A stretch of DNA of 64,000 nucleotides. Source: an uncultured Candidatus Saccharibacteria bacterium (GTDB lineage Bacteria; Patescibacteriota; Minisyncoccia; UBA6257; UBA9933). The notes beneath the pieces were generated by a model. It did not search any database and was not told the origin of the DNA. It saw nothing but the letters and a program-made list of their open reading frames with translations. Location of the stretch: the NCBI GenBank assembly GCA_964453135.1, contig CAYVOL010000002.1, forward strand, positions 55,094-119,093, read 5' to 3'. The translations under genes and the position numbers were made by a program. Positions 34,095 through 64,000 of the stretch are shown here, one piece after another (the stretch's first letter is position 1; every line of letters starts with the position of its first letter).

Positions 34095-34787
34095 TTACCC
34101 CCCGCTGATTTTTTGTAAGGCGTCCTGGGCTGCCTCGGTTTCTGCTTCCTGTTTGGAAAATCCTTTGCCCGTGCCGCTGATTTTGTCTCCGAAGTAAACC
34201 GCCACGGTGAAAATTTTTTGATGGTCTGGCCCTTCTTCTTTTAAGACAGAATACGAAGGGGTTAGTTTTAATTTTTCCTGAATAATTTCCTGCAGTAAGC
34301 TTTTCGGGTCTTTGTAGGTTTTGTTTTTGATTACTTCCGGCACAAGAGAGAGGATGTGGTTTTTGATGAAGCAAGATGTTTTTTCGTAGCCGGCGTCCAA
34401 GTAAGCGGCGCCGATAACCGCTTCCAGGGCATTGGCTAAAATGACTTCTTTCGCCCGGCCGGAATCTTTTTCTTCTCCGCGGGAAAGGTAAATGAAGGTT
34501 TCTAAATTGATGCTTTTCGCCACTTTTGCCAGAGTCTGATAATTAACAATCGCGGCGCGAATGCCGGTAAGCTCCCCTTCGGAGTATTGCGGGTAGCTTT
34601 GAAAAAGATTTTCCGTGGTTGTCAGCTCTAAAACAGCGTCTCCCAAAAATTCCAGTCTTTCATTATGGGGAGTTTCCCAGTCGGGGTTTTCATTAAGATA
34701 AGAGCGGTGAGTGAGCGCTTCTTTGAGCAGTTGTTTGCTATTAAACTCAATGCCGATTTTGTTTTCTAAATTCGATAATTCCACCAA
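34095..34787 (-). CDS. rnc: ribonuclease III
   Basis: Signature ERLEFLGDAVLE, C-terminal dsRBD. Probable TTG/GTG start. Confidence 0.9.
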   Translation of the reverse strand: MVELSNLENKIGIEFNSKQLLKEALTHRSYLNENPDWETPHNERLEFLGDAVLELTTTENLFQSYPQYSEGELTGIRAAIVNYQTLAKVAKSINLETFIYLSRGEEKDSGRAKEVILANALEAVIGAAYLDAGYEKTSCFIKNHILSLVPEVIKNKTYKDPKSLLQEIIQEKLKLTPSYSVLKEEGPDHQKIFTVAVYFGDKISGTGKGFSKQEAETEAAQDALQKISGG

Positions 34788-35789: not shown

Positions 35790-35883
35790 GTCATTCTGAA
35801 TCCGCCAGCTGGCGGAGAAGAATCTTGTTAGATCCTTCGCCCCGCTAAGCGGGGCTCAGGATGACAAAAACGTTCAGGATGAC
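35790..35883. repeat. MITE-like intergenic repeat, copy A (module 1 hairpin TCCGCC-n-GGCGGA, module 2 hairpin CCCCGC-n-GCGGGG, GTCATTCTGAA / CTCAGGATGAC termini)
   Basis: gtcattctgaatccgccagctggcggagaagaatcttgttagatccttcgccccgctaagcggggctcaggatgac. Homologous to copies at 53026-53070, 57963-58015 (inverted) and 62237-62379. Confidence 0.7.
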
Positions 35884-51030: not shown

Positions 51031-52263
51031 TTATTTCTTATAAAAATTTTTCAGCAATAATCTTGTTACGGTGATGGCGGAAAACATGCTGACTAAAACA
51101 CCGATGAGAAGCGTCAAGGCGAATCCTTTGACAAAGCTGGAGGTGAATTCATAAAGAATTAAAGAGGAAATGATAGTGGAAATGTTGGAATCTCTGATAG
51201 AAGGCCAGGCGCGGCGGAATCCTTCGTCTATGGCGCCGGTTTTTGACAGGCCTTTTTTAATTTCTTCCTTGGTTCTTTCAAAAATCAGAATGTTGGCGTC
51301 TACCGCCATGCCGATGGAAAGGATATAACCGGCAATGCCGGCCAAAGTCATCGTGATGGCAATTTTGAAAATCGCCATAGTGAGGACGATGTAAACTAAT
51401 AAAGCGATGACGGCAAAAATTCCCAAAGCCCGATAATAAAGCATCATGAATAAAATTACCAGAAGTGTGCCCAGCAGGCCGGCGTAAATCGCCTTTTGCA
51501 ACGACTCCTGACCCAGTCCCGCTCCGATGGTTTGCTGGCTGACTAATTTTAAGGGCGCGGGCAGAGCGCCGGCGTTAAATCTTTCCACTAAGCCGCGGGC
51601 TTCTTCCCGGGAAAAGCGGCCGGTGATTTCCGCCTTGCCGCCGGAAATTTTATCCTGCACGCGCGGAGAGTCTATTAATTGATTGTCCAGAAAAATAGCC
51701 AGAGGTTTTCCGATGTTGCGGCTGGTGATGTCTTCAAATAATTTCGCGCCTTCGTCATTGAGCTGAAAATTTATTTTCGGCGCGTTGGTGTTTTGGTCAA
51801 AATCAAGCTGGGCGCCGATAATATAGCGGCCCGACAAAGCGGTGGGAGCAAAAGCCGTGCTTGTGCCCACTTGTACTTGTTCGCGGAAATCTAAAAGCGG
51901 GGTTTGGCCGATTTCGCTGATGGCTTGGCTGGCGTCTTTGATGCCGGCCAACTCCACCACCAAGCGATAAGCGTCGCCCTCTCGGGCGGTCAACACTTGC
52001 GGTTCGCTGACGCCAAAAAGATTTACTCTTTTTTCTATCACGTCTTTCAGTCCGGCCAGGACCGAGTCGCGGTCCCCTGATTTTACCTGGCTCATATCCG
52101 CTTCGTAAACCAAATGAGTGCCGCCCACCAAATCAAGGCCCAAACGCCAGGGCAAAAATTTCTGCCCCCAGTTGAGCGGCTTAGACAATGGCCAGATAAA
52201 AAACAAAGCCGCTACGGCTACGATAAATACCAATATCAAAAGAAGTGATTGCTTTTCGTTCAT
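51031..52263 (-). CDS. secD: protein translocase subunit SecD
   Basis: LDLVGGTHLVYEAD, LAGIAGYILSIGMAVDANILIFERTKEE. Start placed at the internal MNEKQSLLLIL rather than the ORF-track start at 52350. Confidence 0.85.
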   Translation of the reverse strand: MNEKQSLLLILVFIVAVAALFFIWPLSKPLNWGQKFLPWRLGLDLVGGTHLVYEADMSQVKSGDRDSVLAGLKDVIEKRVNLFGVSEPQVLTAREGDAYRLVVELAGIKDASQAISEIGQTPLLDFREQVQVGTSTAFAPTALSGRYIIGAQLDFDQNTNAPKINFQLNDEGAKLFEDITSRNIGKPLAIFLDNQLIDSPRVQDKISGGKAEITGRFSREEARGLVERFNAGALPAPLKLVSQQTIGAGLGQESLQKAIYAGLLGTLLVILFMMLYYRALGIFAVIALLVYIVLTMAIFKIAITMTLAGIAGYILSIGMAVDANILIFERTKEEIKKGLSKTGAIDEGFRRAWPSIRDSNISTIISSLILYEFTSSFVKGFALTLLIGVLVSMFSAITVTRLLLKNFYKK

Positions 52264-52398
52264 AGAAGATAGAAGTTTGATGGTCAAATTTTCAACAAAA
52301 CAAGAATACTTTTTTCTGCGGTTGATGTCAATGATTTTTCTTTGGGACAATTTGAGTTTAATTTGGAAATTTTTGTTTGATGTCCTATAATTTTCCTT

Positions 52399-52959
52399 AT
52401 GATTTTATCAGACAAAGACCTGAAAAAAGCTATCAGCGAGAAAAAATTGATATTTCAGCCGAAATTGGAATCAGAGCAAATAGGGCCGGCGTCTATTGAT
52501 TTAAAATTGAGCCCGATATTCAAAGTTTTCCACGCCGAAAGAAACAGCTTATTAGATACGAAAAAAGAATTGCCCAAGGATTTTTATAAGACCTATAAAT
52601 TGAAAAACGATGAATTTTTTATTTTGCATCCAATGTCTTTTATTCTTGCCAGCACCATTGAATATATAAAAGTGCCGAGCGATATGGTGGTCAGGGTTGA
52701 GGGCAAAAGTTCTTTGGCAAGAATGGGGATTTTAGTGCATACTGCCGGTTTTGTTGATCCTGGGTTCGAAGGCGCGATAACACTGGAAATCAGCAATCAG
52801 TCAAATCTGGCTGTAACTTTATATCCGAAAATGTACATTTGCCAGATAGCGGTTGAGATGATGTCTTCGCCCGCCGAGACGCCGTATAACAAAAGAAAAA
52901 AATCTCTTTATTTGAAACAAAAGGGGCCGACCGAAGCAAAAACAAGAAATCTTTTTTAG
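52399..52959 (+). CDS. dcd: dCTP deaminase
   Basis: MILSDKDLKKAI, GPASIDLKL, VEGKSSLARMGILVHTAGFVDPGFEGAITLE. 186 aa. Confidence 0.85.
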   Translation: MILSDKDLKKAISEKKLIFQPKLESEQIGPASIDLKLSPIFKVFHAERNSLLDTKKELPKDFYKTYKLKNDEFFILHPMSFILASTIEYIKVPSDMVVRVEGKSSLARMGILVHTAGFVDPGFEGAITLEISNQSNLAVTLYPKMYICQIAVEMMSSPAETPYNKRKKSLYLKQKGPTEAKTRNLF

Positions 52960-53025
52960 ATCCGGGATAGTTTGGCCCGCGTATAGCGAGTCCGTATGCA
53001 GTTATGGCGGCGCTGTTTGCAATCT

Positions 53026-53070
53026 GTCATCCTGAGTCCCCCGCCGTGGCGGGGCGGGGCTCAGAATGAC
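53026..53070. repeat. MITE-like intergenic repeat, copy B (compact form)
   Basis: gtcatcctgagtcccccgccgtggcggggcggggctcagaatgac. 11-nt terminal inverted repeats around a CCCCGCC/GGCGGGG hairpin. Confidence 0.7.
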
Positions 53071-53207
53071 CAAGGCAGGATGTTTTGCCGAGGTTTTTTT
53101 TGAATGGCGTTAGTTGTGGTTGACGGAATTCCTAATTTAATTTACTTTTTAGGCAGAGATTATTTCAGCATTTCAGATGTTTAACAATTTCATAGAAGGA
53201 GGAAAGC

Positions 53208-53894
53208 ATGGAAAAGAAACATGGACGACGGGGCAAGTTTATCGTGTTGGAAGGCGGCGAAGGAAGCGGCAAGGGCACGGCGATTGATTTTTTGAAAGAA
53301 CGTTGCGCCACGGAGTTTCCGGGAAAAGAGTTTGTCTTTACCCGAGAGCCTGGAGGAACGGAGTACGGCGAAGAACTGCGCGGAGCATTACTTTCCCCGG
53401 CCAACAAAGGGAAAGTTACTGCGCTCTCGGAGCTTTTGACATTTTGCGCCATCCGGGCAAATCACTGCGACCTACTTATTCGCCCAGCTCTTGATGCCGG
53501 AAAGATCGTGGTCTGCGACAGGTTTTACCATTCCACTATTGCTTACCAGATTTACGGAAGAGACAGGAAGGAGTTGCGGCCGGTTTTTGAACGGATTAAT
53601 TCTTACGCAATCGGAGGAAACGGGAAGGGCGGCGGATTGGAGCCGGATCTCGTCATATTTTTAGATGTTGAACCAGAGATCGGCCTGGAAAGAATCCAAC
53701 GAAGAAAGGGAGAATTAACGCGGTTTGACCAGGAGAAGCTTATGTTTCATAAGCGCGTTTTCTGGGGATATACCGACCAGTATTACGACGGAAACAGCGA
53801 TAATTGGGTGCGCATAGATACCGGACTTTACGACATAGAAAGAATGCGCGCGCTCGTGTTTCAAGAAGCCAAAACGCTTTTAGCCGGAGGATAA
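53208..53894 (+). CDS. tmk: thymidylate (dTMP) kinase
   Basis: P-loop FIVLEGGEGSGKGT, TREPGGTEYGEELR, lid region. GGAGG RBS upstream. Confidence 0.85.
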   Translation: MEKKHGRRGKFIVLEGGEGSGKGTAIDFLKERCATEFPGKEFVFTREPGGTEYGEELRGALLSPANKGKVTALSELLTFCAIRANHCDLLIRPALDAGKIVVCDRFYHSTIAYQIYGRDRKELRPVFERINSYAIGGNGKGGGLEPDLVIFLDVEPEIGLERIQRRKGELTRFDQEKLMFHKRVFWGYTDQYYDGNSDNWVRIDTGLYDIERMRALVFQEAKTLLAGG

Positions 53895-53904
53895 GGAGGA
53901 CAGG

Positions 53905-55278
53905 ATGATTTCGGTTAATCTGGTCAATAAATCGGAAGTTCCGCCTTTGAAAAGCGCGTCGCAAGCCGGGCGCACCTGTTACAGCGACGAGATACCAGAC
54001 GCAGATGATGGAAAGATGCTTGACGTTGAGGGGCGATTATTCGACACGGGTCATCATACGACCTGCGAACATTTCTATATGTCGTATGCGATAGAGGGGA
54101 TTGCGGTGGGAGATGTAACATTCGGTTTGCATCTGGCCCATCCTTTCTATAACAGCGATCAGCGATCAGGAAGATTTTGCGGAAAGATGTTTACAAATCC
54201 TGACCGCGCTTATACGCAAATCGCAAGCTATCTCAGCAACTATTGGCCGCTGTTGGATTACTCGCGTCATCGCGAAGTAATGAATTATGTATGCGAGGGC
54301 GTTCAGTTATTCAATTCTTATCTTCCGCGCGCGACAGAAGTCGCGGAGCGCTGGATAGCAGAAGACCGGCCTTTCGCGAGCAAATTTGTTCGGGCGAGCG
54401 CGGCAAAATTCGCGCAAGAGCAGTTGCGGATGTTTATTCCGGTCATTTTTCCTACTGGGCTGATATATACGATTGACCCCATTACGCTCGCTTCAATGTA
54501 TCGCGCGGCATGGAGTCCGCCATTGCGGTGCGTAACCGGCCAAATGGCCGATGCGCTTATCACGAAATATCCGGAGGTCGGATTTATGTTCGGTCCGCGC
54601 GACGAGGATTACGAGTGGGCGCCGGAAAAAATGGAAAATCGCGGAGAGATGTTTTTGTATACTCCTCGACTTGATTCTCTTGAAGTCAAGATTAAGGAGA
54701 ATAAATTTATAGCGCCTGCTCCAGTCGACAAACATCCAATTGATCTGCTTCGGTTTCGCCCAGAGTTTATGGATAATTCGGTGGCGACAATAGAAACAAG
54801 AATTTCGATTTCCTTGGCTACAATGGGACAAGACCAGCGCCATCGGACAATTGAGCGGGGCATTCCGCAATTTACCGGAGAATTTTATATTCCTCCGATA
54901 ATGGCGGGACTCGGGGCTGAGCGTCGGATATGGGAGCAGATGTGTTGGTGGCTATCTTTCAAAGACCGCCTGCCACCGACGCTTTGGATGATTCTCGCGC
55001 CATACGGAGCAGTGGTTTCCTACGAAAAGCGCGCCAGCTTGAACGCGATGATCCACGAGCAAGCCAAACGTTTATGCTGGAGCGCGCAGGAAGAAATTTA
55101 TCATCTCGGGCGCGAGATGAGGCAGGGGTTGCTCAAGCAAGGATACGAAAACTTGGCCGATCTTTTTCCGCCGCATTGTTTCTTTACCGGCCGTTGCGCG
55201 GAAGGAAAGAGATTTTGCGGCAGAGACAGGAGATTGCGGCATCAACCGGAATTGTATTTTCCGGAACGGAGAATATGA
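53905..55278 (+). CDS. tandem-duplicated ThyX-like (flavin-dependent thymidylate synthase) protein with complementary motif loss between halves
   Basis: Half 1 has GHHTTCEH (like GHETPFEH) and SDQRSGRF (like SxRY) but AHP in place of RHR. Half 2 has DQRHRTIERG (the RHR motif), EFYIPP and RASLNAMIHEQ...CWSAQEEI (like [20 protein letters not shown]). Motifs recalled from T. maritima ThyX, not searched. Confidence 0.5.
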   Translation: MISVNLVNKSEVPPLKSASQAGRTCYSDEIPDADDGKMLDVEGRLFDTGHHTTCEHFYMSYAIEGIAVGDVTFGLHLAHPFYNSDQRSGRFCGKMFTNPDRAYTQIASYLSNYWPLLDYSRHREVMNYVCEGVQLFNSYLPRATEVAERWIAEDRPFASKFVRASAAKFAQEQLRMFIPVIFPTGLIYTIDPITLASMYRAAWSPPLRCVTGQMADALITKYPEVGFMFGPRDEDYEWAPEKMENRGEMFLYTPRLDSLEVKIKENKFIAPAPVDKHPIDLLRFRPEFMDNSVATIETRISISLATMGQDQRHRTIERGIPQFTGEFYIPPIMAGLGAERRIWEQMCWWLSFKDRLPPTLWMILAPYGAVVSYEKRASLNAMIHEQAKRLCWSAQEEIYHLGREMRQGLLKQGYENLADLFPPHCFFTGRCAEGKRFCGRDRRLRHQPELYFPERRI

Positions 55279-55305
55279 TTTTGGGGAGGTTCTTTCGAGC
55301 TTTAC

Positions 55306-55345
55306 GGGCTCCGGCGGATTTTCGTCGGAGCCCTTTTCATTTTTC
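55306..55345 (+). terminator. intrinsic terminator after the tmk/thyX-like pair
   Basis: gggctccggcggattttcgtcggagccc hairpin followed by ttttcattttt. Confidence 0.55.
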
Positions 55346-55399
55346 ACAAGAGTGATATGATTAAGGTCGCAAATTGTTTATTTTTTTGTCTGAATACTT

Positions 55400-55906
55400 A
55401 TGCTCAACATAATTTTAACGATTTTAGTATTGGCCGTTGTTCTTGCCGGCGGGTATTATTTTAAGGATAAATTTAATCCAATGTTTTCTCCGCTTAGGAA
55501 TGAAAACACAACCAGTGAGACTGCCAAGCAAGAGACATCCGCGAGGAATGAGAACAAAATTTCTCTTCCGGTTGGCGGCCAAGGGGATTTGAAAGTAGAA
55601 ATCTTGAAGCAAGGCCAGGGAGTGGAAATTAAAAATGGAGACAAAGCCACGGTGCATTATGTCGGGACTTTGGAAAACGAAAAAAAATTTGATTCCAGTC
55701 TTGATAGGGGCCAGCCGTTTGAATTTATCGTGGGCGCCGGCCGGGTGATTAAAGGCTGGGATTTGGGAGTTGCGGGGATGAAAGCCGGAGAGAAAAGAAA
55801 ATTAACCATTCCTTATAATTTAGCCTACGGCGAGGCGGGTATTCCTAACGCCATTCCTCCCAAAGCCACCCTTATTTTTGAGGTGGAGCTTTTGAAGATA
55901 AATTGA
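55400..55906 (+). CDS. FKBP-type peptidyl-prolyl cis-trans isomerase, membrane-anchored
   Basis: N-terminal TM helix. FKBP core ATVHYVGTLENEKKFDSSLDRGQPFEFIVGAGRVIKGWDLGVAGMKAGE. Confidence 0.8.
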   Translation: MLNIILTILVLAVVLAGGYYFKDKFNPMFSPLRNENTTSETAKQETSARNENKISLPVGGQGDLKVEILKQGQGVEIKNGDKATVHYVGTLENEKKFDSSLDRGQPFEFIVGAGRVIKGWDLGVAGMKAGEKRKLTIPYNLAYGEAGIPNAIPPKATLIFEVELLKIN

Positions 55907-57075
55907 AAAATGCGGGAGCGGGGTTGATTTTTCCAGCGACTTATAATAACATCATTAACTATATGAACAGCGAAGCGAACACATCTTCCAATGTTTCCTT
56001 AATGGAGCAATTGATTAAGGCGGATGCCGGCGCGATTGCTTTTGTTAAAGAAGGTGATTTGGTGCCGGCGCGATTTTTAAACCGCTCTGCTTCGGTTGTT
56101 TTTTTTGATTTGGGAAAATACGGCACCGGTATTGTATACGGACGGGAATTGATGAACGCCCGGGAGATTGTGAGAAATCTTCAGCCGGGAGACGAAGTTA
56201 ATGTCGAGGTTGTTAATTTAGAAAGCGAAAACGGCTGTCTGGAACTTTCTTTGGTGAATGTCCAGGAACAGAGAAGCTGGGAAGTGGTAAAAGAAATGAA
56301 AGAGAGCGACAAGGTGATGAGCGTAAAAATTAAAGGCGCCAACAGCGGAGGATTGACTACTGACGTGGAAGGATTGAAAGCGTTTTTGCCGGCTTCGCAA
56401 TTGTCCAGCGAGCATTATCCGTCTGTGGGCAAGGAAGACCCGAAGAGAATTTTGACGGAGCTCAAAAAATTGGTGGGAGAGGAATTGTCGGTGAAAATTA
56501 TAGACGTCAACCCGCGGGCGGAAAAATTGATAATCTCGGAAAAAGAAGCAGTGGGAGAAAACATTAAAGCGCTTCTGGCGGCTTATAAAGCGGGCGACGA
56601 AGTGGAAGGGATAATTTCCGGCGTGGTTGATTTCGGCGTCTTCGTCAAATTTGTGAATACGCCGGCTATTGAAGGACTCATTCATATTTCGGAATTAGAC
56701 TGGCGCCTGATTGATAATCCCAAAGAAATTTTCAAGATGGACGAGGTGGTGAAAGCAAAAATTATTGAGATTAAAAACGACAAGGTGTTTCTTTCTTTGA
56801 AAGCGCTGAAGCCCAATCCTTGGGAAGCGGCGGGCGGAAAATTTGCGGAAGGGCAAAAAGTTTCCGGCCGCGTTTACAAATTCAGCCCCTTCGGCGCTTA
56901 CGTTGATTTGGGAAGCGATCTTTTCGGCTCGGTCCACGTTTCCGAGTTTGGCTCTGTGGAAGAAATGAAAAAACATCTGGAGCTGGGCAAGGATTATGAA
57001 TTTACCATCAGCGTTTTCAAGCCGTCCGATAAGAGGATTTCCTTGAAAGCGGCGGGGACGAACAATGAATCTTGA
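55903..57075 (+). CDS. rpsA: 30S ribosomal protein S1 (short four-S1-domain form)
   Basis: Repeated S1 OB-fold motifs (GDEVEGIISGVVDFGVFVKF, GQKVSGRVYKFSPFGAYVDL). Start uncertain; internal Met at MNSEANT is possible. Confidence 0.75.
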   Translation: MKNAGAGLIFPATYNNIINYMNSEANTSSNVSLMEQLIKADAGAIAFVKEGDLVPARFLNRSASVVFFDLGKYGTGIVYGRELMNAREIVRNLQPGDEVNVEVVNLESENGCLELSLVNVQEQRSWEVVKEMKESDKVMSVKIKGANSGGLTTDVEGLKAFLPASQLSSEHYPSVGKEDPKRILTELKKLVGEELSVKIIDVNPRAEKLIISEKEAVGENIKALLAAYKAGDEVEGIISGVVDFGVFVKFVNTPAIEGLIHISELDWRLIDNPKEIFKMDEVVKAKIIEIKNDKVFLSLKALKPNPWEAAGGKFAEGQKVSGRVYKFSPFGAYVDLGSDLFGSVHVSEFGSVEEMKKHLELGKDYEFTISVFKPSDKRISLKAAGTNNES

Positions 57076-57094
57076 TTGACATGGCGGAGAAAAA

Positions 57095-57131
57095 AGGGCT
57101 GTCCCGTTAAATCGGTACAGCCCTTTTTTTA
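57095..57131 (+). terminator. intrinsic terminator after rpsA
   Basis: gggctgtcccgttaaatcggtacagccc hairpin + ttttttta. Confidence 0.65.
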
Positions 57132-57172
57132 TTGATTACTTTCGCGCCCGCCGTATAATAAGTTTAAGAAGT

Positions 57173-57955
57173 ATGTCTGTTGAAATTATCTATCAAGACA
57201 AAAATTTCATTGCCGTAAACAAACCGGCGGGAATGCTGACGCACCCGGTTTTAAGGGCGCAAGAAAAAAGACAAGGCAAAAATTTGGGCGGCGAGCGCGG
57301 ACAAGAAGCCCTGACAGATTTTTTAGTCAAAAAATTTCCGGAGATAAAAGAAGTGGGAGACGACCCTTTTCTCCGCCCGGGAATAGTACATCGTTTAGAT
57401 AAGGATACCTCGGGCGTTATTTTAATAGCCCGCAATCAGCCCTATTTTGATTATCTGAAAAATCTTTTTCAAACTCGCAGGATAAAAAAAACATATTTAG
57501 CTTTGGTACAAGGGGAATTAAAAGAAAAGAAAGGAGTGATTGAGAGAGTTATCAGTTTGAAGAGCGGCTCGGTAAAAAGAACGGTTCATAAGGGCAAAGA
57601 AGAAAAGCCGGCCATTACCGAATATCGGACATTGAAAAATTTAATTTTAAGAAAATCGCCGGAAGGAAAAGATTTGAAAGAGAAATTTTCTTTGCTGGAA
57701 GTTAGCCCCAAGACAGGCAGAACCCATCAGATAAGGGTTCATTTGGCGTCAATTAGCCATCCGGTTGCGGGCGACAATTTATACGGGCCTAAAAATTTTG
57801 ACTACACTTCCTTGGGATTGAACCGGCAATTTCTTCACGCGCAATCCGTGGAGTTTAACACCGAAGAAGGGAGGCGGGTTAAAATTGAGGCGGATTTGCC
57901 GCCGGAATTAAAAAACGTTTTGAAAAAATTCCGCGCGGCGCAAGCGGCTAGGTGA
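57173..57955 (+). CDS. RluA-family pseudouridine synthase (no S4 domain)
   Basis: FIAVNKPAGMLTHP, catalytic HRLDKDTSGVILIA, GRTHQIRVHLA. Confidence 0.85.
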   Translation: MSVEIIYQDKNFIAVNKPAGMLTHPVLRAQEKRQGKNLGGERGQEALTDFLVKKFPEIKEVGDDPFLRPGIVHRLDKDTSGVILIARNQPYFDYLKNLFQTRRIKKTYLALVQGELKEKKGVIERVISLKSGSVKRTVHKGKEEKPAITEYRTLKNLILRKSPEGKDLKEKFSLLEVSPKTGRTHQIRVHLASISHPVAGDNLYGPKNFDYTSLGLNRQFLHAQSVEFNTEEGRRVKIEADLPPELKNVLKKFRAAQAAR

Positions 57956-57962
57956 TGCGGTT

Positions 57963-58015
57963 GTCATCCTGAGGAGCCCCGCTGTGGCGGGGCGACGAAG
58001 GATCTCGCGAGATTC
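57963..58015. repeat. MITE-like intergenic repeat, copy C (module 2, inverted orientation)
   Basis: gtcatcctgaggagccccgctgtggcggggcgacgaaggatctcgcgagattc. Its reverse complement aligns base-for-base with copy A 35818-35865. Confidence 0.7.
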
Positions 58016-58117
58016 TTTTCCTCTGATTGGCCTGGCGATAGAATGATTCGCCTTTATTTTTATTTGACTAAACGGCGATGATTTGGTAGTCTTACGAAAT
58101 AATTTTTATCAGGAACT

Positions 58118-58477
58118 ATGGATGAAAAAATTATTCAACAAATAAAGTCCGGCGCGCAGGTGCGCGTTTGGGAAAGAATTGTTGCCGAAAAAGGCGCGGC
58201 TGGCGGAAAAGGGAAAAAAGAAAGCGGCAAAGAGAGAATTTCCAAATTTCAGGGAATAGTTTTGGCGCGCAAACACGGCAAAGAAACCGGCGCCACTTTC
58301 ACCGTTCGCTCTACAGTTGGAGGCGTGGGCGTGGAGAAGGTTTATCCTTTTTATTCGCCGATAATTTCCAAAATAGAAATTTTATCTTCTCCTAAAAAGA
58401 TTCATCGCTCCAAACTTTATTTTGTCAGGGATCTCTCCAAAAAGAAATCGCGCGAGAAAATCGGCGTGGCGGCGTAG
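58118..58477 (+). CDS. rplS: 50S ribosomal protein L19
   Basis: VRVWERI...ERISKFQGIVLARKHGKETGATFTVRS...GVGVEKVYPFYSP matches L19. Confidence 0.9.
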   Translation: MDEKIIQQIKSGAQVRVWERIVAEKGAAGGKGKKESGKERISKFQGIVLARKHGKETGATFTVRSTVGGVGVEKVYPFYSPIISKIEILSSPKKIHRSKLYFVRDLSKKKSREKIGVAA

Positions 58478-58572
58478 AGAATAAGAAGAAGCAATATTTT
58501 TTTGTTTTTATTGATTATGGTATACGCTATAAACTTGAGAAAATGATAAAATAATGATGAAATAAATTAAAA

Positions 58573-59241
58573 ATGAGTAAGAGGGGGGCCAAGCCAAAGG
58601 GGAAAGTTAAAATAAAGTGGTCGTCAAAATTTGCTTACGCGATTGGGCTCTTGGTTACCGACGGCAGTTTATCGAATGATGGGCGACATATTAATTTTAC
58701 CTCAAAAGATAGGGAGTTAGTTATTTTACTAAAAGATTCTTTAATGATCGATAATCACATTGGTAAAAAAGCGAGAGTGAGCGAGCAGGAGAAAAAATAT
58801 TTTGTTATTCAATTTGGAGATGTTTTGTTTTATTCATTTTTATGCTCTATCGGCTTGATGCCATGTAAATCCAAGAAGTTAACTTCAATCAATATTCCAG
58901 ATAAATATTTTTTCGATTTTTTGCGAGGTCATTTTGATGGCGACGGAACTTTTTATTCGTATTGGGATCCGCGTTGGAAATCAAGTTTTATGTTCTATAC
59001 TGTTTTTGTTTCGGCGAGCGAAAAACATATTCAATGGCTTCAAAATAAAATATACGGATTTTTAAAAATTAAAGGGCACATCAACCATAATTTTAAGAAA
59101 ACGGTTTATGAGTTGAAATACGCCAAAAAAGAATCATTGAGTTTATTGACTAAAATGTATTATGATAACAAAGTATCTTGTTTATCAAGGAAGAAGGAAA
59201 AAATAAAAAAAGCTTTAAAAATTGATGAGTATCATCAATAG
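58573..59241 (+). CDS. free-standing LAGLIDADG-family homing endonuclease (two motifs)
   Basis: AYAIGLLVTDGSL and FDFLRGHFDGDGTF. AT-rich compared with neighbours. Ends 4 nt before tRNA-Leu. Confidence 0.7.
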   Translation: MSKRGAKPKGKVKIKWSSKFAYAIGLLVTDGSLSNDGRHINFTSKDRELVILLKDSLMIDNHIGKKARVSEQEKKYFVIQFGDVLFYSFLCSIGLMPCKSKKLTSINIPDKYFFDFLRGHFDGDGTFYSYWDPRWKSSFMFYTVFVSASEKHIQWLQNKIYGFLKIKGHINHNFKKTVYELKYAKKESLSLLTKMYYDNKVSCLSRKKEKIKKALKIDEYHQ

Positions 59242-59245
59242 GTTA

Positions 59246-59332
59246 GCCCGGGTGTCGTAATTGGTAGCCGAGCATGCTTGAGGTGCATGTGGCCGCAAGG
59301 CCGTGGAGGTTCGAGTCCTCTCCCGGGCACCA
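59246..59332 (+). tRNA. tRNA-Leu (anticodon GAG), CCA encoded
   Basis: Acceptor GCCCGGG/CCCGGGC, anticodon arm CATGC-TTGAGGT-GCATG, long variable arm GGCCGCAAGGCCG, T-arm GGAGGTTCGAGTCCTCT, 3' ACCA. Confidence 0.8.
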
Positions 59333-59386
59333 CAACTAACTTTTTCGGAATTGATATTTAAAGGCGCTGTTTGTATACTAAAGAGA

Positions 59387-59776
59387 ATGACAGGAACTGA
59401 AAAAGCAACAAAAAAAATTTTAATCATTGAAGACGACCCTTATATTGTCCGGGCCTACACTTTAAAATTGGCCAAGGAAGGCATTGCCGCGGAGGCGGTT
59501 AATGACGGCGAAACAGCGGTTGATTTCTTGAAAAAAAACAAGCCGCCCGATTTGATTATTTTGGATTTGATGTTGCCTAGGCAAAGCGGCTTCGATGTTT
59601 TAAAAGAGATTAAGCAAAGCGATTTATGGAAAGATATTCCGGTGATAATTCTTTCCAATCTTGGCAGCGAAGAGGACAAGGAGAAAGGGAAAAAACTGGG
59701 CGCCAGCGATTATATCACCAAAGCCGACGCCGGCATTGAAGAGGTGATAGCGAAAATAAAAAAATATCTGAAATGA
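59387..59776 (+). CDS. single-domain response regulator (REC only; PilH/CheY-like) heading the pilin locus
   Basis: ILIIEDDPYIVRAY...DLIILDLMLPRQSGFDV...VIILSNLGS. 129 aa. The ORF-track start at 59303 lies inside the tRNA; ATG at 59387 chosen. Confidence 0.75.
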   Translation: MTGTEKATKKILIIEDDPYIVRAYTLKLAKEGIAAEAVNDGETAVDFLKKNKPPDLIILDLMLPRQSGFDVLKEIKQSDLWKDIPVIILSNLGSEEDKEKGKKLGASDYITKADAGIEEVIAKIKKYLK

Positions 59777-59916
59777 GCGAGCGCGCCTGGGAAAGTTATC
59801 CACATTGTAAAGTCTTGCGGCGGATAAATAAATAAATTAAAATAAATTTTGAGGCGTTGAAAATTATTAAGTGAAATAATTAAGCGAAAGGTCGTCTACT
59901 ATACCAAATTTTTTAT

Positions 59917-60582
59917 ATGTTAAATAAAAATAAGAAAAGAGGTTTTACTTTGTTGGAGCTTTTAATTGTTATCGGCATTTTGGCGGTTTTAGCCGGAGTG
60001 ATGATTTTTATTTTAAACCCGGCGGAAACTTTAAGGAAAGCGCGCGATTCGCAAAGGTTGAGCGATTTGGCGACGTTAAAGTCTGCCTTGGGAATTTATA
60101 TGTCCAGCGCGGCTTCTCCTCAGATTGACGGCACGAGCGGAACAGCCAATGATAAATGTTTGGGCGGCGGAGGGACAAAAACTATTTATTGGAGCAATGC
60201 TACTTCCGGCGCAAACACATCAACAACCAATTCCGGTTTTGACGCTTTTTCCGTTTCTACTTCCGGGGTTATCACCGGCAGCGGCTGGGTTCCGGTAAAC
60301 TTAAGCAGTCTTTCCGGCGGTTCTCCTATATCCGCCATGCCTATTGACCCGTCAAACACCACCAGTTCGGTTGCCACCTCCAGCTTGGTTTATCGTTATG
60401 CTTGCAGGAAGTCTCCCTTGGGATTTGAAATTAATTCTCAGTTGGAGTCTGATTTCTACACGGGCGTTTCCAGCGGCGCCGCTGATTGGAGGAAAAATGA
60501 TTCAGGCAACGAGTCCGGTCTTTATGAAGTAGGCACAGACCTGACAATTTTACTGGCCGCTAGCAGCTCTAATGCGTATTAA
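59917..60582 (+). CDS. type IV pilin-like protein (paralog 1)
   Basis: Prepilin signal MLNKNKKRG-FTLLELLIVIGILAVL with Glu+5. Conserved PAETLRKARDSQR and C-terminal LYEVGTD. Confidence 0.8.
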   Translation: MLNKNKKRGFTLLELLIVIGILAVLAGVMIFILNPAETLRKARDSQRLSDLATLKSALGIYMSSAASPQIDGTSGTANDKCLGGGGTKTIYWSNATSGANTSTTNSGFDAFSVSTSGVITGSGWVPVNLSSLSGGSPISAMPIDPSNTTSSVATSSLVYRYACRKSPLGFEINSQLESDFYTGVSSGAADWRKNDSGNESGLYEVGTDLTILLAASSSNAY

Positions 60583-60590
60583 AATAAAAA

Positions 60591-61280
60591 ATGTTAATTC
60601 ATAAAAAATCAAAAAATAAGCTCGGTTTCACGCTTTTGGAACTTTTAATTGTTATCGCTATTATCGGCATTTTGGGTATGGTGTTGTTTTTCCTGATTAA
60701 CCCGGCGGAAACTTTAAGAAAAGCTCGCGATTCGCAAAGAATTAGCGATTTGGGAACAATCAAATCGGCTTTAGCGCTTTACACTTCCAATGTTTCTTCT
60801 CCTCAGCTTGACGGAACAAGCGGAACGGCCAATGCAAAATGTAAAGACGGAAGCGGTACGAAGACAATTTTCTTAAGCGTCGCGACCAGCGGTATTGCCA
60901 CGACAACGGGTATGAGTCCTGCTTACAGCGCTTTTACCACTTCTACCTTGGCCAGTTCGTCATTGACCAATGGCACGGGATGGGTTCCGGTGAATCTGGC
61001 TTCAATTTCCGGAGGCACGCCGATTTCTCAGCTTCCGGTTGACCCGACTAATACTACAAATAGTTCGGTTGCCACCAGCAGTTTGATTTATCGTTATGTT
61101 TGTAACGGCAGTCCTTTGGGTTTTGGGGTTTCAGCGCAGATGGAAAGCGCTTATTATACCGGATCTGATTCTTCCGCTTCCAGCACGGACGTGAGAAAAA
61201 TTGACGGAGGCAACAACGCGGATCTTTACGAAGTCGGCAGCGACCCGACGCTGTTGCCGGCCACGGGAGCGAAATATTAA
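60591..61280 (+). CDS. type IV pilin-like protein (paralog 2)
   Basis: KLG-FTLLELLIVIAIIGIL. Same conserved N-terminal 50 aa and LYEVGSD tail. 8 nt after paralog 1. Confidence 0.8.
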   Translation: MLIHKKSKNKLGFTLLELLIVIAIIGILGMVLFFLINPAETLRKARDSQRISDLGTIKSALALYTSNVSSPQLDGTSGTANAKCKDGSGTKTIFLSVATSGIATTTGMSPAYSAFTTSTLASSSLTNGTGWVPVNLASISGGTPISQLPVDPTNTTNSSVATSSLIYRYVCNGSPLGFGVSAQMESAYYTGSDSSASSTDVRKIDGGNNADLYEVGSDPTLLPATGAKY

Positions 61281-61310
61281 ACAGGTCGTATAAATAATTA
61301 AATAATAAAT

Positions 61311-61443
61311 CCCCACACCTAATGCGAATTGCGAAGCAAACAAAACTTTATCGTTAAACTTCGCATTCCGTAATTATAGCTATTGTTTTATTTTTCCGTA
61401 TCATTTTGGCTTCGCAAGTTTTATATTCGCATTAGGTGTGGGG
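61311..61443. repeat. large imperfect inverted repeat (27/35-nt arms, about 70-nt spacer) between pilin paralogs 2 and 3
   Basis: Arm 1 ccccacacctaatgcgaattgcgaagc (61311-37). Arm 2 gcttcgcaagttttatattcgcattaggtgtgggg (61409-43) equals the reverse complement of arm 1 plus an 8-nt insertion. Confidence 0.7.
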
Positions 61444-61491
61444 ATAGAAATAATCCATCAATGAATTTTCATCAAAACAGAAAATTTTACT

Positions 61492-62166
61492 TTGCTTGAA
61501 CTTTTGATTGTGGTGGCGATTTTGGCGGTGTTGGGCGCCATTACTTTGTTTGTCTTGAATCCGGCGGAAACTTTGAAGAAAACAAGGGATTCGCAGAGAA
61601 TTACCGATTTGGGAACAATTAAATCGGCGCTGGCTTTGTATTTAACCAGCACCTCCACCGCTTATATAGGCGCGACTTCCACAAGTCCCATTACGACAAA
61701 CGGAGGTTGTCTTAATGGCGGCGCTTCGCTCGGTTCAGCCAGCGGAACGGTTTGGTACAGCGTTAACACTACTTTAGCGAAAGCTACAACTACTTATCCT
61801 GATAACGGAGTAGGCGCCAGCGTCTGGGCTCACGCAACTTCCACCAATCTTTATCTGACCGACGGAACAGGATGGGTTCATGCCAATCTTGACGCTTTGA
61901 CCGGCGGTTCCCCCATTTCCAATTTGCCGGTTGATCCGACCAATACAATAGCCGGGGCAAATAATTCCACCAGCACTGATTTGGTTTACCGGTACGGCTG
62001 CGCGGTTGACAATGCCGCCAATAAATCTATTACCGGATTCGAAGTGGACGCCGAGCTGGAAAGTTCCGCTTACAGCGGAATGGCTTCCACTGACGGCGGA
62101 GATAATTCCCAGCTTTACGAAGTGGGCACTCAGGTAAAAAATCTTTTGCCGAAAAGCGGATTCTAA
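61492..62166 (+). CDS. type IV pilin-like protein (paralog 3) with disrupted or non-canonical leader
   Basis: Mature region FTLLELLIVVAILAVLGAITLFVLNPAETLKKTRDSQR and LYEVGTQ tail are conserved. No in-frame ATG; Asn instead of Gly at -1. ATG at 61461 is in another frame. Confidence 0.55.
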   Translation: MLELLIVVAILAVLGAITLFVLNPAETLKKTRDSQRITDLGTIKSALALYLTSTSTAYIGATSTSPITTNGGCLNGGASLGSASGTVWYSVNTTLAKATTTYPDNGVGASVWAHATSTNLYLTDGTGWVHANLDALTGGSPISNLPVDPTNTIAGANNSTSTDLVYRYGCAVDNAANKSITGFEVDAELESSAYSGMASTDGGDNSQLYEVGTQVKNLLPKSGF

Positions 62167-62236
62167 AAATATCTTTTTATCTTTTTTAGAAAAAATCCCG
62201 TCCCGCCATTGGCGTGACGGGATTTTGTTTGCGGCA

Positions 62237-62379
62237 GTCATTCTGAACGCACAGCAGTGTCATTCCGAATCCGCCGAAGGCGGATGAGGAATCTCAAGAA
62301 AGACGCGTCGCTTGTCGGTAAGTTTTTCGAAATGGCGCAAGATTCCTCGCCCCCCGCCGTGGCGGGGGCTCGGAATGAC
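62237..62379. repeat. MITE-like intergenic repeat, copy D (expanded: duplicated module 1 + spacer + module 2)
   Basis: gtcattctgaacgcacagcagtgtcattccgaatccgccgaaggcggatgaggaatctcaag ... gattcctcgccccccgccgtggcgggggctcggaatgac. Confidence 0.7.
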
Positions 62380-62458
62380 GGACGACATTTGCTTTTTCTG
62401 GCAAGACGTTGTTTTTTGTTTGTTGAACACCGCAGAAAATAGTATAATTAAGAATTAA

Positions 62459-62980
62459 ATGTCGGGTTTAAGAATCGTAAAATCAAACAAAGGCGTTTCT
62501 TTGATGGAGCTCATTATCTATATCGGTGTTTTCTCCGTGGTCGCGGTGGTGATGGTGCAGTTTTTCTTGGCGAGTTTGAGAGGCCTCGATTTGGCAAACG
62601 CCAAATATGAAGTTTCGCAAAATATAAGATTTGCCACGGAGAAAATCAAACAAACTGTTTTTGACGCTTCGGCTGTTTCCACTTCGGGAAGCTGTCCGTT
62701 AAACACCTTGAATGCTACTTCCACTAGTAATGCCACCTCGTCTATTTTTGTCAATGCCAGCGGCACATTAGAGTTCAGCGACGCCAGTGGCACAGTTGAT
62801 TTAACCACCGGCCAAGTTATTGCCACGACCACCGCCACGTGCCTTTTTACGATCATTTCCAATCCCGCGCCCGCTAAGCCCACTGTTCAAACATCTTTGA
62901 AAATAGTTTATAATAATCAAAGCCGCACGGATTTAAGCCAAGTTGCCGATACGCAGCAATTTACCACTTCGCTTCGTTGA
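62459..62980 (+). CDS. minor pilin / pseudopilin-like protein
   Basis: Prepilin-type N-terminus KG-VSLMELIIYIGVFSVVAVVMV (Glu+5). Ser/Thr-rich secreted part. Confidence 0.55.
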   Translation: MSGLRIVKSNKGVSLMELIIYIGVFSVVAVVMVQFFLASLRGLDLANAKYEVSQNIRFATEKIKQTVFDASAVSTSGSCPLNTLNATSTSNATSSIFVNASGTLEFSDASGTVDLTTGQVIATTTATCLFTIISNPAPAKPTVQTSLKIVYNNQSRTDLSQVADTQQFTTSLR

Positions 62981-63034
62981 ATGAGCTTTTAGCTGTTAGC
63001 TTCTAGTTTTTAGCCAGAAAAAGAGATAAATAAT

Positions 63035-63508
63035 TTGAGAAAAATTAAGAATATACCGAGCATTATGGAAATCCTACCTCGGAAAGCTAAAAGCTATAAA
63101 CTAAAAACTAGCAGAGGGGTGGCAGCGCTGCCGGTTATCGTGGTGATTTCTTTGATTGTATTGGTGATTGCCGTCGGCATTTCTTCCAGCAGTTATATTG
63201 AAAATTGGGGAACATATACGGAGGCGGAAAACAAAAAAGCGTCGTTTGCGGCGGAAGCGGGCGCCCACGACGCTTACAAAAGGATTACCAAAAACACCAG
63301 CTGCAACACGGGAGGTTCGCCGGATTGCTCCAGTTATACGCTATCAGTTGCCGATGCTACAGCGACTATAACAGTAAGCGGCGGCAGTTCCAAAACAATT
63401 CTTTCCATCGGGAAAGTCAGCAATGTTCAGGTGAAAATTCAGGTGGGCGTTTCCGTTGACGCCGATAATAAAGTTACCCAGACATCGTGGCAGCAGCTAA
63501 ACAACTAA
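63035..63508 (+). CDS. pilin-like / pilus assembly protein with N-terminal hydrophobic anchor
   Basis: SRG-VAALPVIVVISLIVLVIAVGI leader-like segment without Glu+5. Confidence 0.45.
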   Translation: MRKIKNIPSIMEILPRKAKSYKLKTSRGVAALPVIVVISLIVLVIAVGISSSSYIENWGTYTEAENKKASFAAEAGAHDAYKRITKNTSCNTGGSPDCSSYTLSVADATATITVSGGSSKTILSIGKVSNVQVKIQVGVSVDADNKVTQTSWQQLNN

Positions 63509-63529
63509 TTAGTTTTATAAGGAGACTCA

Positions 63530-64000
63530 ATGAAAAGTTTTTTAGAGAAAAAAATTGATAATCTAAAAAAGAAATTTTTTTCTTTTTTGCGGCACCGAAA
63601 GCCGATTGCCGGCTTGGCTATTGCCGATGACAGCTTGAACGTCATTATTTTTGACGAATATAGGAATAGAAGATTGGGAGAAAAAATAAACATTGACATT
63701 TCCAGCGGCGAGTCTGTTAAAAACGGCTTGAAAAATTTGAAAAAAAAATTCGGCGCCAGTTTTTCTTCGGTGGTGGTATCTTTGCCGCCGGATTATTCTT
63801 ATTTGACGATGTTTGAATTTCCCTTGTCCGCCGAAGAAGAGCAAATTAAAGAAGCAATGAGTCTGGCGTCGTCGTCTTTGCCTTTGCCGGAAGAGAGGAT
63901 TTATTCCGACTGGATGTTTTTGGAAAACCGAAGCGCCAGAAAAAAAGAGGCGGTTTTGGAAATGGCGAAAAAGGAATTGATAGATTCTTATCTGAAAATT
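63530..64000 (+). CDS. pilM: type IV pilus assembly protein PilM-like (actin-fold), 3'-partial
   Basis: AGGAG RBS at 63520. KPIAGLAIADDSLNVIIFDE resembles the PilM/FtsA phosphate-1 strand. ORF runs off the window end. Confidence 0.55.
   Translation, partial: MKSFLEKKIDNLKKKFFSFLRHRKPIAGLAIADDSLNVIIFDEYRNRRLGEKINIDISSGESVKNGLKNLKKKFGASFSSVVVSLPPDYSYLTMFEFPLSAEEEQIKEAMSLASSSLPLPEERIYSDWMFLENRSARKKEAVLEMAKKELIDSYLKI

What the first reader, a model, noticed from the sequence alone, without database searches (positions are those of the whole stretch)
61311..61443. 133-nt inverted repeat (27/35-nt arms) between pilin paralogs 2 and 3
ccccacacctaatgcgaattgcgaagc and its complement gcttcgcaa[gttttata]ttcgcattaggtgtgggg flank a roughly 70-nt AT-rich spacer that itself contains a smaller hairpin (gcgaag…cttcgc). 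It sits 30 nt after the paralog-2 stop and 18 nt before the paralog-3 reading frame. Arms this long are far beyond a normal terminator. Possible roles are a strong bidirectional terminator or attenuator separating the paralogs, a processing or stability element, or a site for inversion or recombination of pilin cassettes.
Basis: seen in the sequence. Interest (0 to 1): 0.5.

Follow-up and report, generated by a model that had tools for sequence, protein, structure and literature searches.

The report
Orphan palindromic insertion between pilin genes
The inverted repeat is real: a 137-bp non-coding palindromic element in the spacer between two pilin genes of a Parcubacteria-type (CPR) bacterium. 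It is absent from the only close relative and looks like a single-copy MITE-like insertion that would fold into a long RNA hairpin, not like a terminator or a pilin switch.

Summary
Arms 61309-61329 and 61425-61445 are 21 nt and 100% complementary. An 8-nt bulge separates them from a further 8-bp stem (29 Watson-Crick pairs in all) around a 71-nt AT-rich core. Both strands fold far better than shuffles (z about -7). The element is unique in the window and was not found in any public collection searched.

The only close relative (L004) has pilin 1 joined to the pilin 3 ortholog by a 72-nt spacer, with no pilin 2 and no element, so the element is lineage-specific.

It is not a canonical terminator. 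It has no U-tract, whereas this clade ends its pilin genes with ordinary GC stem plus T-run terminators.

Nothing supports an invertible switch. There is no recombinase in 64 kb and no promoter-like site inside the element.

It meets the MITE criteria of size, terminal inverted repeats, AT-richness and AT-rich intergenic site. Multi-copy status, a target-site duplication and a parent IS are unproven.

Most likely it is an orphan MITE-like insertion, co-transcribed and folding into a 21+8-bp duplex that RNase III (encoded in the window) could cut.

Pilin 3 downstream has lost its in-frame start and its Gly(-1).

Interest is low to moderate.

The parts
61309..61329 (.). Left terminal inverted repeat, ATCCCCACACCTAATGCGAAT (outer stem, 21 nt)
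   Evidence: 100% complementary to 61425-61445. The 19-mer occurs only in these two places in the window, against 0.01 expected.
61330..61337 (.). Left inner arm TGCGAAGC. With 61323-61329 it forms a tandem TGCGAAT-TGCGAAG.
   Evidence: Pairs with 61409-61416 in both folds. Five of the 28 TGCGAA hexamers in the 64-kb window lie inside the element.
61338..61408 (.). 71-nt AT-rich core with no ORF. It holds a partial arm-like copy, CTTCGCATTCCG, at 61359-61370.
   Evidence: Sequence. The whole element is 36% GC against 42% for the window. Inner hairpin I5 is 83% complementary. No promoter-like site lies inside.
61409..61416 (.). Right inner arm GCTTCGCA
   Evidence: (I4).
61417..61424 (.). 8-nt bulge AGTTTTAT, the only asymmetry between the two arms
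   Evidence: Unpaired in the folds.
61425..61445 (.). Right terminal inverted repeat, ATTCGCATTAGGTGTGGGGAT. Its TTCGCA plus the flank AATAAT (61449-61454) give a weak outward promoter-like match.
   Evidence: The promoter-like site scores 9/12, and the number of such sites in the region equals the shuffle expectation.
61281..61308 (+). 28-nt AT-rich flank between the pilin-2 stop and the element. It contains AAATAAT, which recurs at 61448-61454 (candidate target-site duplication).
   Evidence: Direct repeat D4. A shared 7-mer in such flanks has p about 0.08-0.11, so this is inconclusive.
60591..61280 (+). Pilin paralog 2 (229 aa, intact prepilin leader ...KLGFTLLELL). It is absent from relative L004.
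   Evidence: It is 60% identical to pilin 1 and is a mosaic of pilin-1-like and pilin-3-like segments.
61461..62166 (+). Pilin paralog 3 with a decayed 5' end. ATG 61461 opens a 12-codon ORF (stop 61497-61499). The pilin frame is +1, its first canonical start is TTG 61492, and it has Asn in place of Gly(-1).
   Evidence: The ortholog P0002 in L004 is intact (MIKHQLKNKRGFTLLELL, 83% identical).
62192..62226 (+). Canonical intrinsic terminator of the pilin operon (17-bp GC-rich stem followed by TTTTGTTT)
   Evidence: (I1). An equivalent terminator sits at the same place in L004.

Best explanation
The element (61309-61445, 137 bp) is a lineage-specific, non-coding palindromic insertion of the MITE type. 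It has 21-bp perfect terminal inverted repeats (29 bp with one bulge), an AT-rich core, and a position in a purely AT-rich intergenic spacer.

Shown: it is real, non-random, unique in 64 kb, and absent from the orthologous pilin locus of the only close relative. It is not a canonical terminator. It has no recombinase nearby.

Inferred: it arrived by transposition in trans, or is the last copy of a family. Only pilin 3 is followed by a canonical terminator, so the element is probably co-transcribed with pilin 1 and pilin 2. In that mRNA it would fold into a long duplex (about -51 kcal/mol).

The likeliest effect is the one documented for Correia and ERIC elements. The stem is a double-strand-specific RNase III target and/or a 3' barrier to exonucleases. 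That would uncouple the stable pilin 1-pilin 2 message from what lies downstream.

Downstream is a pilin copy that has already lost its in-frame start codon and its Gly(-1) processing site. The element is therefore more likely a tolerated insertion beside a decaying gene than a dedicated regulator.
For: The repeat is real and far beyond chance. All 29 stem pairs are Watson-Crick, with no G-U pairs, and both strands fold equally well. That fits a DNA-level symmetric element or a young insertion better than a long-maintained strand-specific RNA.

It meets the published MITE criteria of length under 500 bp, TIRs of about 4-30 bp, AT-richness, an AT-rich intergenic site and a stable stem-loop transcript (PMC10969869). 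The supporting measurements are 137 bp, 36% GC against 42% for the window, and a left flank that is 100% A+T.

Relative L004 (about 75% nt identity) goes response regulator, pilin 1 ortholog (90% aa), a 72-nt spacer without a hairpin, then an intact pilin 3 ortholog.

The same genome holds a second, unrelated palindromic repeat family (62259-62379 and 35790-35866). It is likewise missing from the orthologous L004 spacer.

A more distant relative, Ca. Wolfebacteria L008, carries a 153-nt repeat bounded by 16-19-nt TIRs, in 2 copies at 89% identity. One copy lies just after its pilin terminator. Small TIR-bounded intergenic elements therefore occur in this clade.

The RNase III gene is at 34098-34787. 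RNase III cleavage at Correia TIRs and promoter and terminator effects of MITEs are documented (PMC2649163 and PMC10969869). MITE families with as few as one copy per genome are known (MITEAba12).
Against: There is no second copy in 64 kb. An exact 19-mer search found none in GTDB representative genomes apart from two solo-arm hits in unrelated phyla, which is chance level: my estimate is about 4 expected. There were none in JGI metagenomes with two different patterns, in IMG/VR, or in the phage and plasmid collections.

No transposase or IS with matching ends was found in the window.

The candidate target-site duplication is not significant. There is no clean empty site, because in L004 the whole pilin 2 + element segment is missing and the flanks do not align.

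Similarity to the L008 elements is not significant.

Co-transcription and RNase III cleavage are not shown.
Confidence: 0.45

Rival explanations
1. A locally evolved functional RNA stem-loop, not mobile. It would be a processing or stability hairpin that sets the expression ratio between pilin 1/2 and pilin 3. Alternatively it would be a 5'-terminal protective hairpin of a pilin-3 transcript started at the weak promoter-like site 61278-61306.
For: It sits 28 nt after a stop codon and 15 nt before an ATG. It is very stable. rnc is present. Promoter-like matches flank it at 61278-61306 and 61426-61454. The L008 repeats also end 13-16 nt before start codons.
Against: It is not conserved in the only close relative. 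The 29 perfect Watson-Crick pairs, with no G-U and equal folding of both strands, give no sign of RNA-level selection. The gene it would serve has no in-frame start. The number of promoter-like sites in the region equals the shuffle expectation.
Confidence: 0.25
2. An intrinsic, possibly bidirectional, terminator or attenuator separating pilin 2 from pilin 3.
For: It is a strong hairpin right after a stop codon. An alternative pairing of the left arm with 61359-61370 (I5) could in principle give two mutually exclusive structures.
Against: No T-run follows on the + strand (AGAAATAATCC), and no terminator-like site was called at the element. Pilin genes here and in L004, L007, L008 and L009 end with ordinary GC stem plus T-run terminators. 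The U-rich tail is only on the - strand, where nothing is transcribed towards it. The alternative pairing is near chance level.
Confidence: 0.08
3. An invertible DNA switch (inverton) or recombination site controlling or exchanging pilin copies.
For: Inverted repeats of 21 bp flank a 95-bp segment directly upstream of a pilin copy that cannot be expressed as it stands. The minus strand of the core contains a perfect TATAAT (61374-61379, read). Correia elements have been reported to invert.
Against: There is no tyrosine or serine recombinase, integrase or transposase in 64 kb. No promoter-like site was called inside on either strand. Inversion would not repair the frame or the missing Gly(-1) of pilin 3. 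Only one orientation is seen in the two assemblies that cover it.
Confidence: 0.04
4. An integron-type attC site or cassette joint, with pilin 2 plus the palindrome acquired as one gene cassette.
For: Pilin 2 and the element are missing together in L004. The element follows the ORF. Its length is within the attC range. ACCTAAT / ATTAGGT resemble RYYYAAC / GTTRRRY at 6 of 7 positions.
Against: The conserved AAC/GTT triplets are absent from the paired arms. The long perfect stem is unlike the R/L boxes with an unpaired spacer and extrahelical bases. There is no integrase and no array: pilin 1 and pilin 2 are only 8 nt apart, and pilin 3 is followed by a terminator. Pilin 2 is a mosaic of its neighbours, which fits local duplication and gene conversion.
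Confidence: 0.03
5. A protein-binding site array (five TGCGAA hexamers), or a palindrome created de novo by a replication template switch, with no function.
For: Five of the 28 TGCGAA hexamers in the window lie within 104 nt. The arms are perfect, as expected of a recent copy event.
Against: Two hexamer pairs are simply the two arms, so only three are independent. No DNA-binding regulator is adjacent: the neighbouring response regulator is a receiver domain only. A single template switch would not leave an 8-nt indel between the arms.
Confidence: 0.1

Closest known systems
Correia repeat-enclosed elements (CREE/NEMIS) of Neisseria
   Same: Both are 100-160-bp non-coding elements bounded by inverted repeats of more than 20 bp, sitting in intergenic spacers close to gene starts and co-transcribed. 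For Correia elements the hairpin is bound or cut by RNase III, and the ends can contribute promoter hexamers (PMC2649163 and PMC10969869).
   Different: There is no sequence similarity. Correia elements are present in more than 100 copies with a TA duplication, whereas only one copy of this element is known and no convincing duplication. The host is a CPR/Parcubacteria bacterium. RNase III cleavage is only inferred here.
Other prokaryotic MITEs and palindromic intergenic repeats (ERIC, RUP, QMITE, MITEAba12)
   Same: Size, TIR length, AT-rich core, AT-rich intergenic target and stable stem-loop transcript. MITEAba12 can be single-copy in some genomes.
   Different: No family, no parent IS and no target-site duplication could be shown.
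TIR-bounded intergenic repeats in Ca. Wolfebacteria GCA_016219775.1 (L008 10793-10945 and 13265-13417; 12173-12351)
   Same: They come from the same broad clade. They have 16-19-nt perfect arms around 71-141-nt AT-rich cores, lie in short spacers of operons, and end 13-16 nt before a start codon. One copy is next to the pilin gene. The inner hairpin of the third shares the 9-mer CCCCACACC with the arms here.
   Different: Overall similarity is not above shuffles (75-133 of 500 shuffles score as high), so homology is not shown.
Stem-loops after major-subunit genes in fimbrial operons, which stabilise mRNA segments (my own knowledge, e.g. pap and K99)
   Same: A hairpin between the abundant structural-subunit genes and the downstream genes of one transcript.
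   Different: Those hairpins are short and conserved. This one has 29 pairs around a 71-nt core and is not conserved in the closest relative.

Membership tests
Prokaryotic MITE | Terminal inverted repeats of about 4-30 bp | tested here: met
   21 nt at 100%, extending to 29 pairs with one 8-nt bulge. Criterion taken from PMC10969869.
Prokaryotic MITE | Under 500 bp, with no transposase or coding capacity | tested here: met
   137 bp. No ORF of 40 aa or more lies within it.
Prokaryotic MITE | AT-rich, inserted in an AT-rich intergenic region, with a transcript that forms a stable stem-loop | tested here: met
   36% GC against 42% for the window. Flanks are 100% and 72% A+T. dG -50.9 kcal/mol, z -7.3.
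Prokaryotic MITE | Flanking direct repeats (target-site duplication) | tested here: inconclusive
   AAATAAT lies 2 nt outside each end, with p about 0.08-0.11. The terminal AT/AT could be a 2-bp duplication or part of the repeat.
Prokaryotic MITE | Repeated family, with more than one copy in the genome or in relatives | tested here: inconclusive
   No other copy in the 64-kb window and none in the public collections by exact pattern or by blastn. The rest of the source genome could not be searched, and diverged copies would escape exact patterns.
Prokaryotic MITE | Presence/absence polymorphism at an orthologous site | tested here: inconclusive
   Absent from L004 and L005, but together with pilin 2. 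The flanks do not align, so there is no clean empty site.
Prokaryotic MITE | A cognate IS or transposase with matching ends | tested here: not met
   No transposase, integrase or recombinase domain in any ORF of 120 aa or more in the window. The rest of the genome could not be tested.
Intrinsic (Rho-independent) terminator | Short GC-rich stem followed directly by a U-tract on the transcribed strand | tested here: not met
   The + strand tail is AGAAATAATCC, and no terminator-like site was called at the element. Genuine terminators of this clade have the U-tract.
Inverton (invertible promoter) | Inverted repeats flanking a promoter-bearing segment | tested here: not met
   The inverted repeats are present, but no promoter-like site lies inside on either strand.
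Inverton (invertible promoter) | A site-specific recombinase, and both orientations present in the population | tested here: not met
   No recombinase in 64 kb. Orientation variants cannot be tested without reads. The two assemblies that cover the element show one orientation.
Integron attC site | R''/R' core sites RYYYAAC ... GTTRRRY, with imperfect R/L boxes and extrahelical bases | tested here: not met
   There is no AAC in the left arm. The only GTT is in the unpaired bulge (GTTTTAT). The stem is a 21-bp perfect duplex.
Integron attC site | An integron integrase and/or an array of cassettes each followed by an attC | tested here: not met
   No integrase. The pilin 1-pilin 2 spacer is 8 nt, and pilin 3 is followed by a terminator.
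Any curated RNA family (Rfam 15) | A match to a covariance model | tested here: not met
   No hit at the element at E<=1 over 57000-64000 or at gathering score over the whole window.

The most novel reading that the evidence does not exclude
The palindrome is the joint or recombination site of a pilin-cassette exchange system in a CPR bacterium. Pilin 2 carries a leader resembling the ancestral pilin-3 leader. Pilin 3 carries a foreign, defective leader immediately after the palindrome. This is the arrangement expected if a circular DNA carrying a pilin gene integrated by a crossover in the conserved N-terminal coding segment, with the palindrome marking where the circle was closed. Alternatively the palindrome could be an inversion site that silences or activates a stored pilin copy.
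Probability: 0.04. Interest if true: 0.7.

Novelty: new member of a known kind. Interest (0 to 1): 0.22.

Why it matters
If it is a MITE-like element, it would be one of few such elements recorded in Patescibacteria/CPR genomes. A full-text search pairing the MITE term with 'Candidate Phyla Radiation' returned one paper, which is not about such elements. These reduced genomes are usually thought to be poor in mobile DNA. Taken with the second palindromic family in this window and the TIR-bounded repeats in Ca. Wolfebacteria, it hints that small palindromic insertions reshape the intergenic spacers of CPR operons, including the type IV pilus genes these bacteria rely on. For this single locus the practical consequence is modest: a likely RNA duplex between two intact pilin genes and a decayed third copy.

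Tried and rejected
Searches for other copies:
- Exact 19-mer arm in GTDB representative genomes gave only two solo hits, in a Chloroflexi MAG and a gammaproteobacterial SAG. Neither has a partner arm or further similarity, and my estimate of the chance number is about 4.
- JGI metagenomes gave 0 with the 19-mer and 0 with a two-arm gapped pattern.
- IMG/VR gave 0. blastn against the phage and plasmid collections gave no match.
- Rfam gave nothing at the element.

Attempts to reach more of the source genome or other strains through exact-protein look-ups returned only the same Logan contig, short contigs, or a second-sample contig. That second-sample contig (SRR5161795, L013) starts inside pilin 3 at 61750 and is identical to the window. 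No orientation variant or empty-site variant was obtained.

Homology to the TIR-bounded repeats of L008 was tested by local alignment against shuffles and rejected as unproven.

The flanking AAATAAT as a target-site duplication was tested and found not significant.

Rejected ideas:
- DNA uptake sequence: it would be highly repeated, and it is not.
- Assembly artefact: two assemblies agree, and by my reasoning the arms are shorter than typical assembly k-mers.
- attC site: the core triplets are missing.
- Operator for the adjacent response regulator: that protein is a receiver domain only.

Full report
**1. The observation**

The spacer between the second and third pilin genes contains a large inverted repeat, as described.
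- The perfect arms are 61309-61329 (ATCCCCACACCTAATGCGAAT) and 61425-61445, 21 nt and 100% complementary, with 95 nt between them.
- Just inside, TGCGAAGC (61330-61337) pairs with GCTTCGCA (61409-61416). The right arm carries an 8-nt bulge (AGTTTTAT, 61417-61424).
- The stem therefore has 29 pairs, all Watson-Crick, around a 71-nt AT-rich core.
- The arm 19-mer occurs only at these two places in 64 kb, against 0.01 expected.
- It is the only perfect inverted repeat of at least 14 nt with a loop of 200 nt or less in the window.
- RNA folding gives -50.9 kcal/mol on the + strand (z -7.3) and -54.5 on the - strand (z -7.6). DNA folding gives -32.7 (z -6.5).
- An independent Logan assembly of run SRR5161805 is identical over 51101-63959, so this is not an assembly artefact.

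**2. Context**

The window comes from a Parcubacteria-type CPR bacterium. The named best hits of the pilins are Wolfebacteria, Terrybacteria, Yonathbacteria and similar.

The locus runs as follows:
- rplS
- a free-standing LAGLIDADG ORF
- tRNA-Leu
- a receiver-only response regulator
- pilin 1 (59917-60582)
- an 8-nt spacer
- pilin 2 (60591-61280)
- a 180-nt spacer holding the element
- pilin 3 (to 62166)
- a canonical terminator (62192-62226)
- minor pilin-like genes.

Pilin 3 is defective at its 5' end.
- ATG 61461 opens a 12-codon ORF that stops at 61497-61499.
- The pilin frame is +1, has a TGA at 61462, and reads Asn where every other copy has the Gly(-1) of the prepilin cleavage site.
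- Its first canonical in-frame start is TTG 61492, inside the mature sequence.

**3. Comparison with relatives**

Only one close relative is in the protein collection, represented by L004 and L005 from ERR6221073/4. It is about 75% identical in nucleotides.
- In L004 the response regulator is followed by the pilin 1 ortholog (90% aa). A 72-nt spacer with no hairpin follows, and then an intact pilin 3 ortholog (P0002, 83%, leader MIKHQLKNKRGFTLLELL).
- Pilin 2 and the element are both missing, and the flanks of the element have no alignable counterpart.
- Pilin 2 has no closer homolog than pilin 1 (60-62%) and is a mosaic of pilin-1-like and pilin-3-like stretches. This fits an old local duplication with gene conversion.

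The element is therefore lineage-specific and not a conserved part of the operon.

**4. What it is not**

*Not a canonical terminator.*
- The + strand has no T-run after the stem, and the consensus scan calls no terminator at the element.
- This clade does use ordinary terminators. Short GC stems followed by T-runs sit after pilin 3 here, after its ortholog in L004, and after the pilin genes of L007, L008 and L009.
- The only U-rich tail is on the - strand, towards which nothing is transcribed.

*Not demonstrably an inverton.*
- No promoter-like site lies inside.
- No recombinase, integrase or transposase domain occurs in any ORF of 120 aa or more across the 64 kb.
- Inversion would not mend pilin 3.

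*Not an attC site.*
- The AAC/GTT core triplets are missing from the paired arms.
- The stem is a perfect duplex rather than R/L boxes with extrahelical bases.
- There is no integrase and no cassette array.

*Not a known RNA family*.

*Not a DNA uptake sequence*, because it is not repeated.

**5. What it most resembles**

The element satisfies the structural description of prokaryotic MITEs in PMC10969869. That description covers length under 500 bp, TIRs of about 4-30 bp, AT-richness, an AT-rich intergenic site and a stable stem-loop transcript. The measurements here are 137 bp, 21-29-bp TIRs, 36% GC against 42% for the window, and flanks of 100% and 72% A+T.

The complete absence of G-U pairs or mismatches in 29 pairs, and the equal folding of both strands, fit a DNA-level symmetric element or a recent arrival. 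They fit an anciently maintained, strand-specific RNA less well.

Two further observations make an insertion plausible.
- A second, unrelated palindromic repeat (GTCATTCYGAATCCGCC...TCGGAATGAC) occurs at 62259-62379 and 35790-35866. It is also missing from the orthologous L004 spacer.
- In 20.7 kb of Ca. Wolfebacteria (L008) there are several inverted repeats with 15-19-nt perfect arms and 53-141-nt cores. Among them is a 153-nt repeat in two copies at 89% identity, one right after the pilin terminator.

Similarity between those elements and this one is not significant. One of them does contain a hairpin with the same 9-mer stem, CCCCACACC.

**6. What is missing for a firm MITE call**

- No second copy was found in the window.
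- None was found in GTDB representative genomes, apart from two solo hits in unrelated phyla at chance level.
- None was found in JGI metagenomes with two patterns, in IMG/VR, or in phages and plasmids.
- The source genome itself is evidently not in the DNA collections scanned. Its other contigs could not be reached through exact-protein look-ups.
- The candidate target-site duplication AAATAAT is not significant (p about 0.08-0.11).
- Single-copy MITEs are known (MITEAba12, 1-22 copies per genome), but the family criterion remains open.

**7. Mechanism**

*Shown:* the anatomy, the lineage specificity, the lack of terminator, recombinase and promoter features, and an RNase III gene with a dsRNA-binding domain at 34098-34787.

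*Inferred:*
- The only canonical terminator follows pilin 3, so transcripts from the pilin 1 promoter should run through the element.
- The 21+8-bp duplex would then form. It could be cut by RNase III, as at Correia TIRs, and/or block 3' exonucleases. Either would separate the pilin 1-pilin 2 message from the downstream, already defective pilin 3.
- The five TGCGAA hexamers concentrated in the element (5 of 28 in the window) may be remnants of transposase-binding repeats. This is speculation.

I put about 0.45 on the MITE-like insertion with this passive RNA effect. I put about 0.25 on a locally evolved functional hairpin. The alternatives listed above get small probabilities.

**8. Verdict**

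This is a real, well-defined palindromic element of an ordinary kind. It is a new, so far orphan, instance in an under-studied phylum. It is not a terminator and not, on present evidence, a pilin switch. Reads from the two SRA runs and a search of the full genome would settle mobility and inversion quickly.

Noticed in passing
window 61461-62166: Pilin paralog 3 has no in-frame ATG. ATG 61461 opens a 12-codon ORF that ends at TGA 61497-61499. The pilin frame is +1 with a TGA at 61462. Asn replaces the Gly(-1) of the prepilin cleavage site. The ortholog in L004 is intact. It is probably a pseudogene or silent copy. Removing one A from the AAAA run at 61481-61484 would restore the frame.
   Followed up: partly
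window 62259-62379 and 35790-35866 (partial copies at 62237 and 35873): A second, GC-richer palindromic repeat family (GTCATTCYGAATCCGCC ... TCGGAATGAC / TCAGGATGAC) occurs in two intergenic spacers. The copy after the pilin-3 terminator is absent from the orthologous spacer of L004. Fold -72.5 kcal/mol, z -3.8.
   Followed up: partly
L008 10793-10945 and 13265-13417 (Ca. Wolfebacteria GCA_016219775.1): A 153-nt repeat with 16-19-nt terminal inverted repeats, in 2 copies at 89% identity. The copies lie between the pilin terminator and the secD ATG, and between secF and the ftsH ATG. The repeat runs into the start codon of the downstream gene. An A/G difference in the left arm is matched by a T/C difference in the right arm.
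   Followed up: partly
L008 12173-12351 and 16286-16480: The stem CCCTCACCCTT/AAGGGTGAGGG recurs as three inverted pairs with loops of 4 to about 150 nt. The 179-nt secD-secF element encloses an 11-bp hairpin, CCCCCACACCA...TGGTGTGGGGG, that shares a 9-mer with the arms studied here.
   Followed up: no
window 58573-59241: A free-standing ORF with a weak LAGLIDADG_3 match (E 7.8e-6) lies between rplS and tRNA-Leu. It may be a homing-endonuclease remnant outside any intron or intein.
   Followed up: no
window 60591-61280: Pilin 2 is a mosaic. Its leader and the DSQR-ITDLGTIK-coding stretch resemble pilin 3 and its ortholog, while the rest resembles pilin 1. This suggests gene conversion among the tandem pilins.
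   Followed up: partly
window 29402-30610: A 403-aa protein has a prepilin N-methylation motif at its N-terminus and a Laminin_G_3 (concanavalin-like lectin) domain at its C-terminus. It may be a pilus-tip adhesin. It is encoded 30 kb from the pilin operon, next to polysaccharide genes.
   Followed up: no
L002 1456-1476 and L003 6617-6636: The arm 19-mer, extended to 21 and 20 nt, occurs once each in a Chloroflexi MAG and a gammaproteobacterial SAG, with no partner arm and unrelated flanks. I judged this to be chance (my estimate is about 4 expected for a 19-mer in this collection), but both hits extend past the query in the direction of the right arm.
   Followed up: partly
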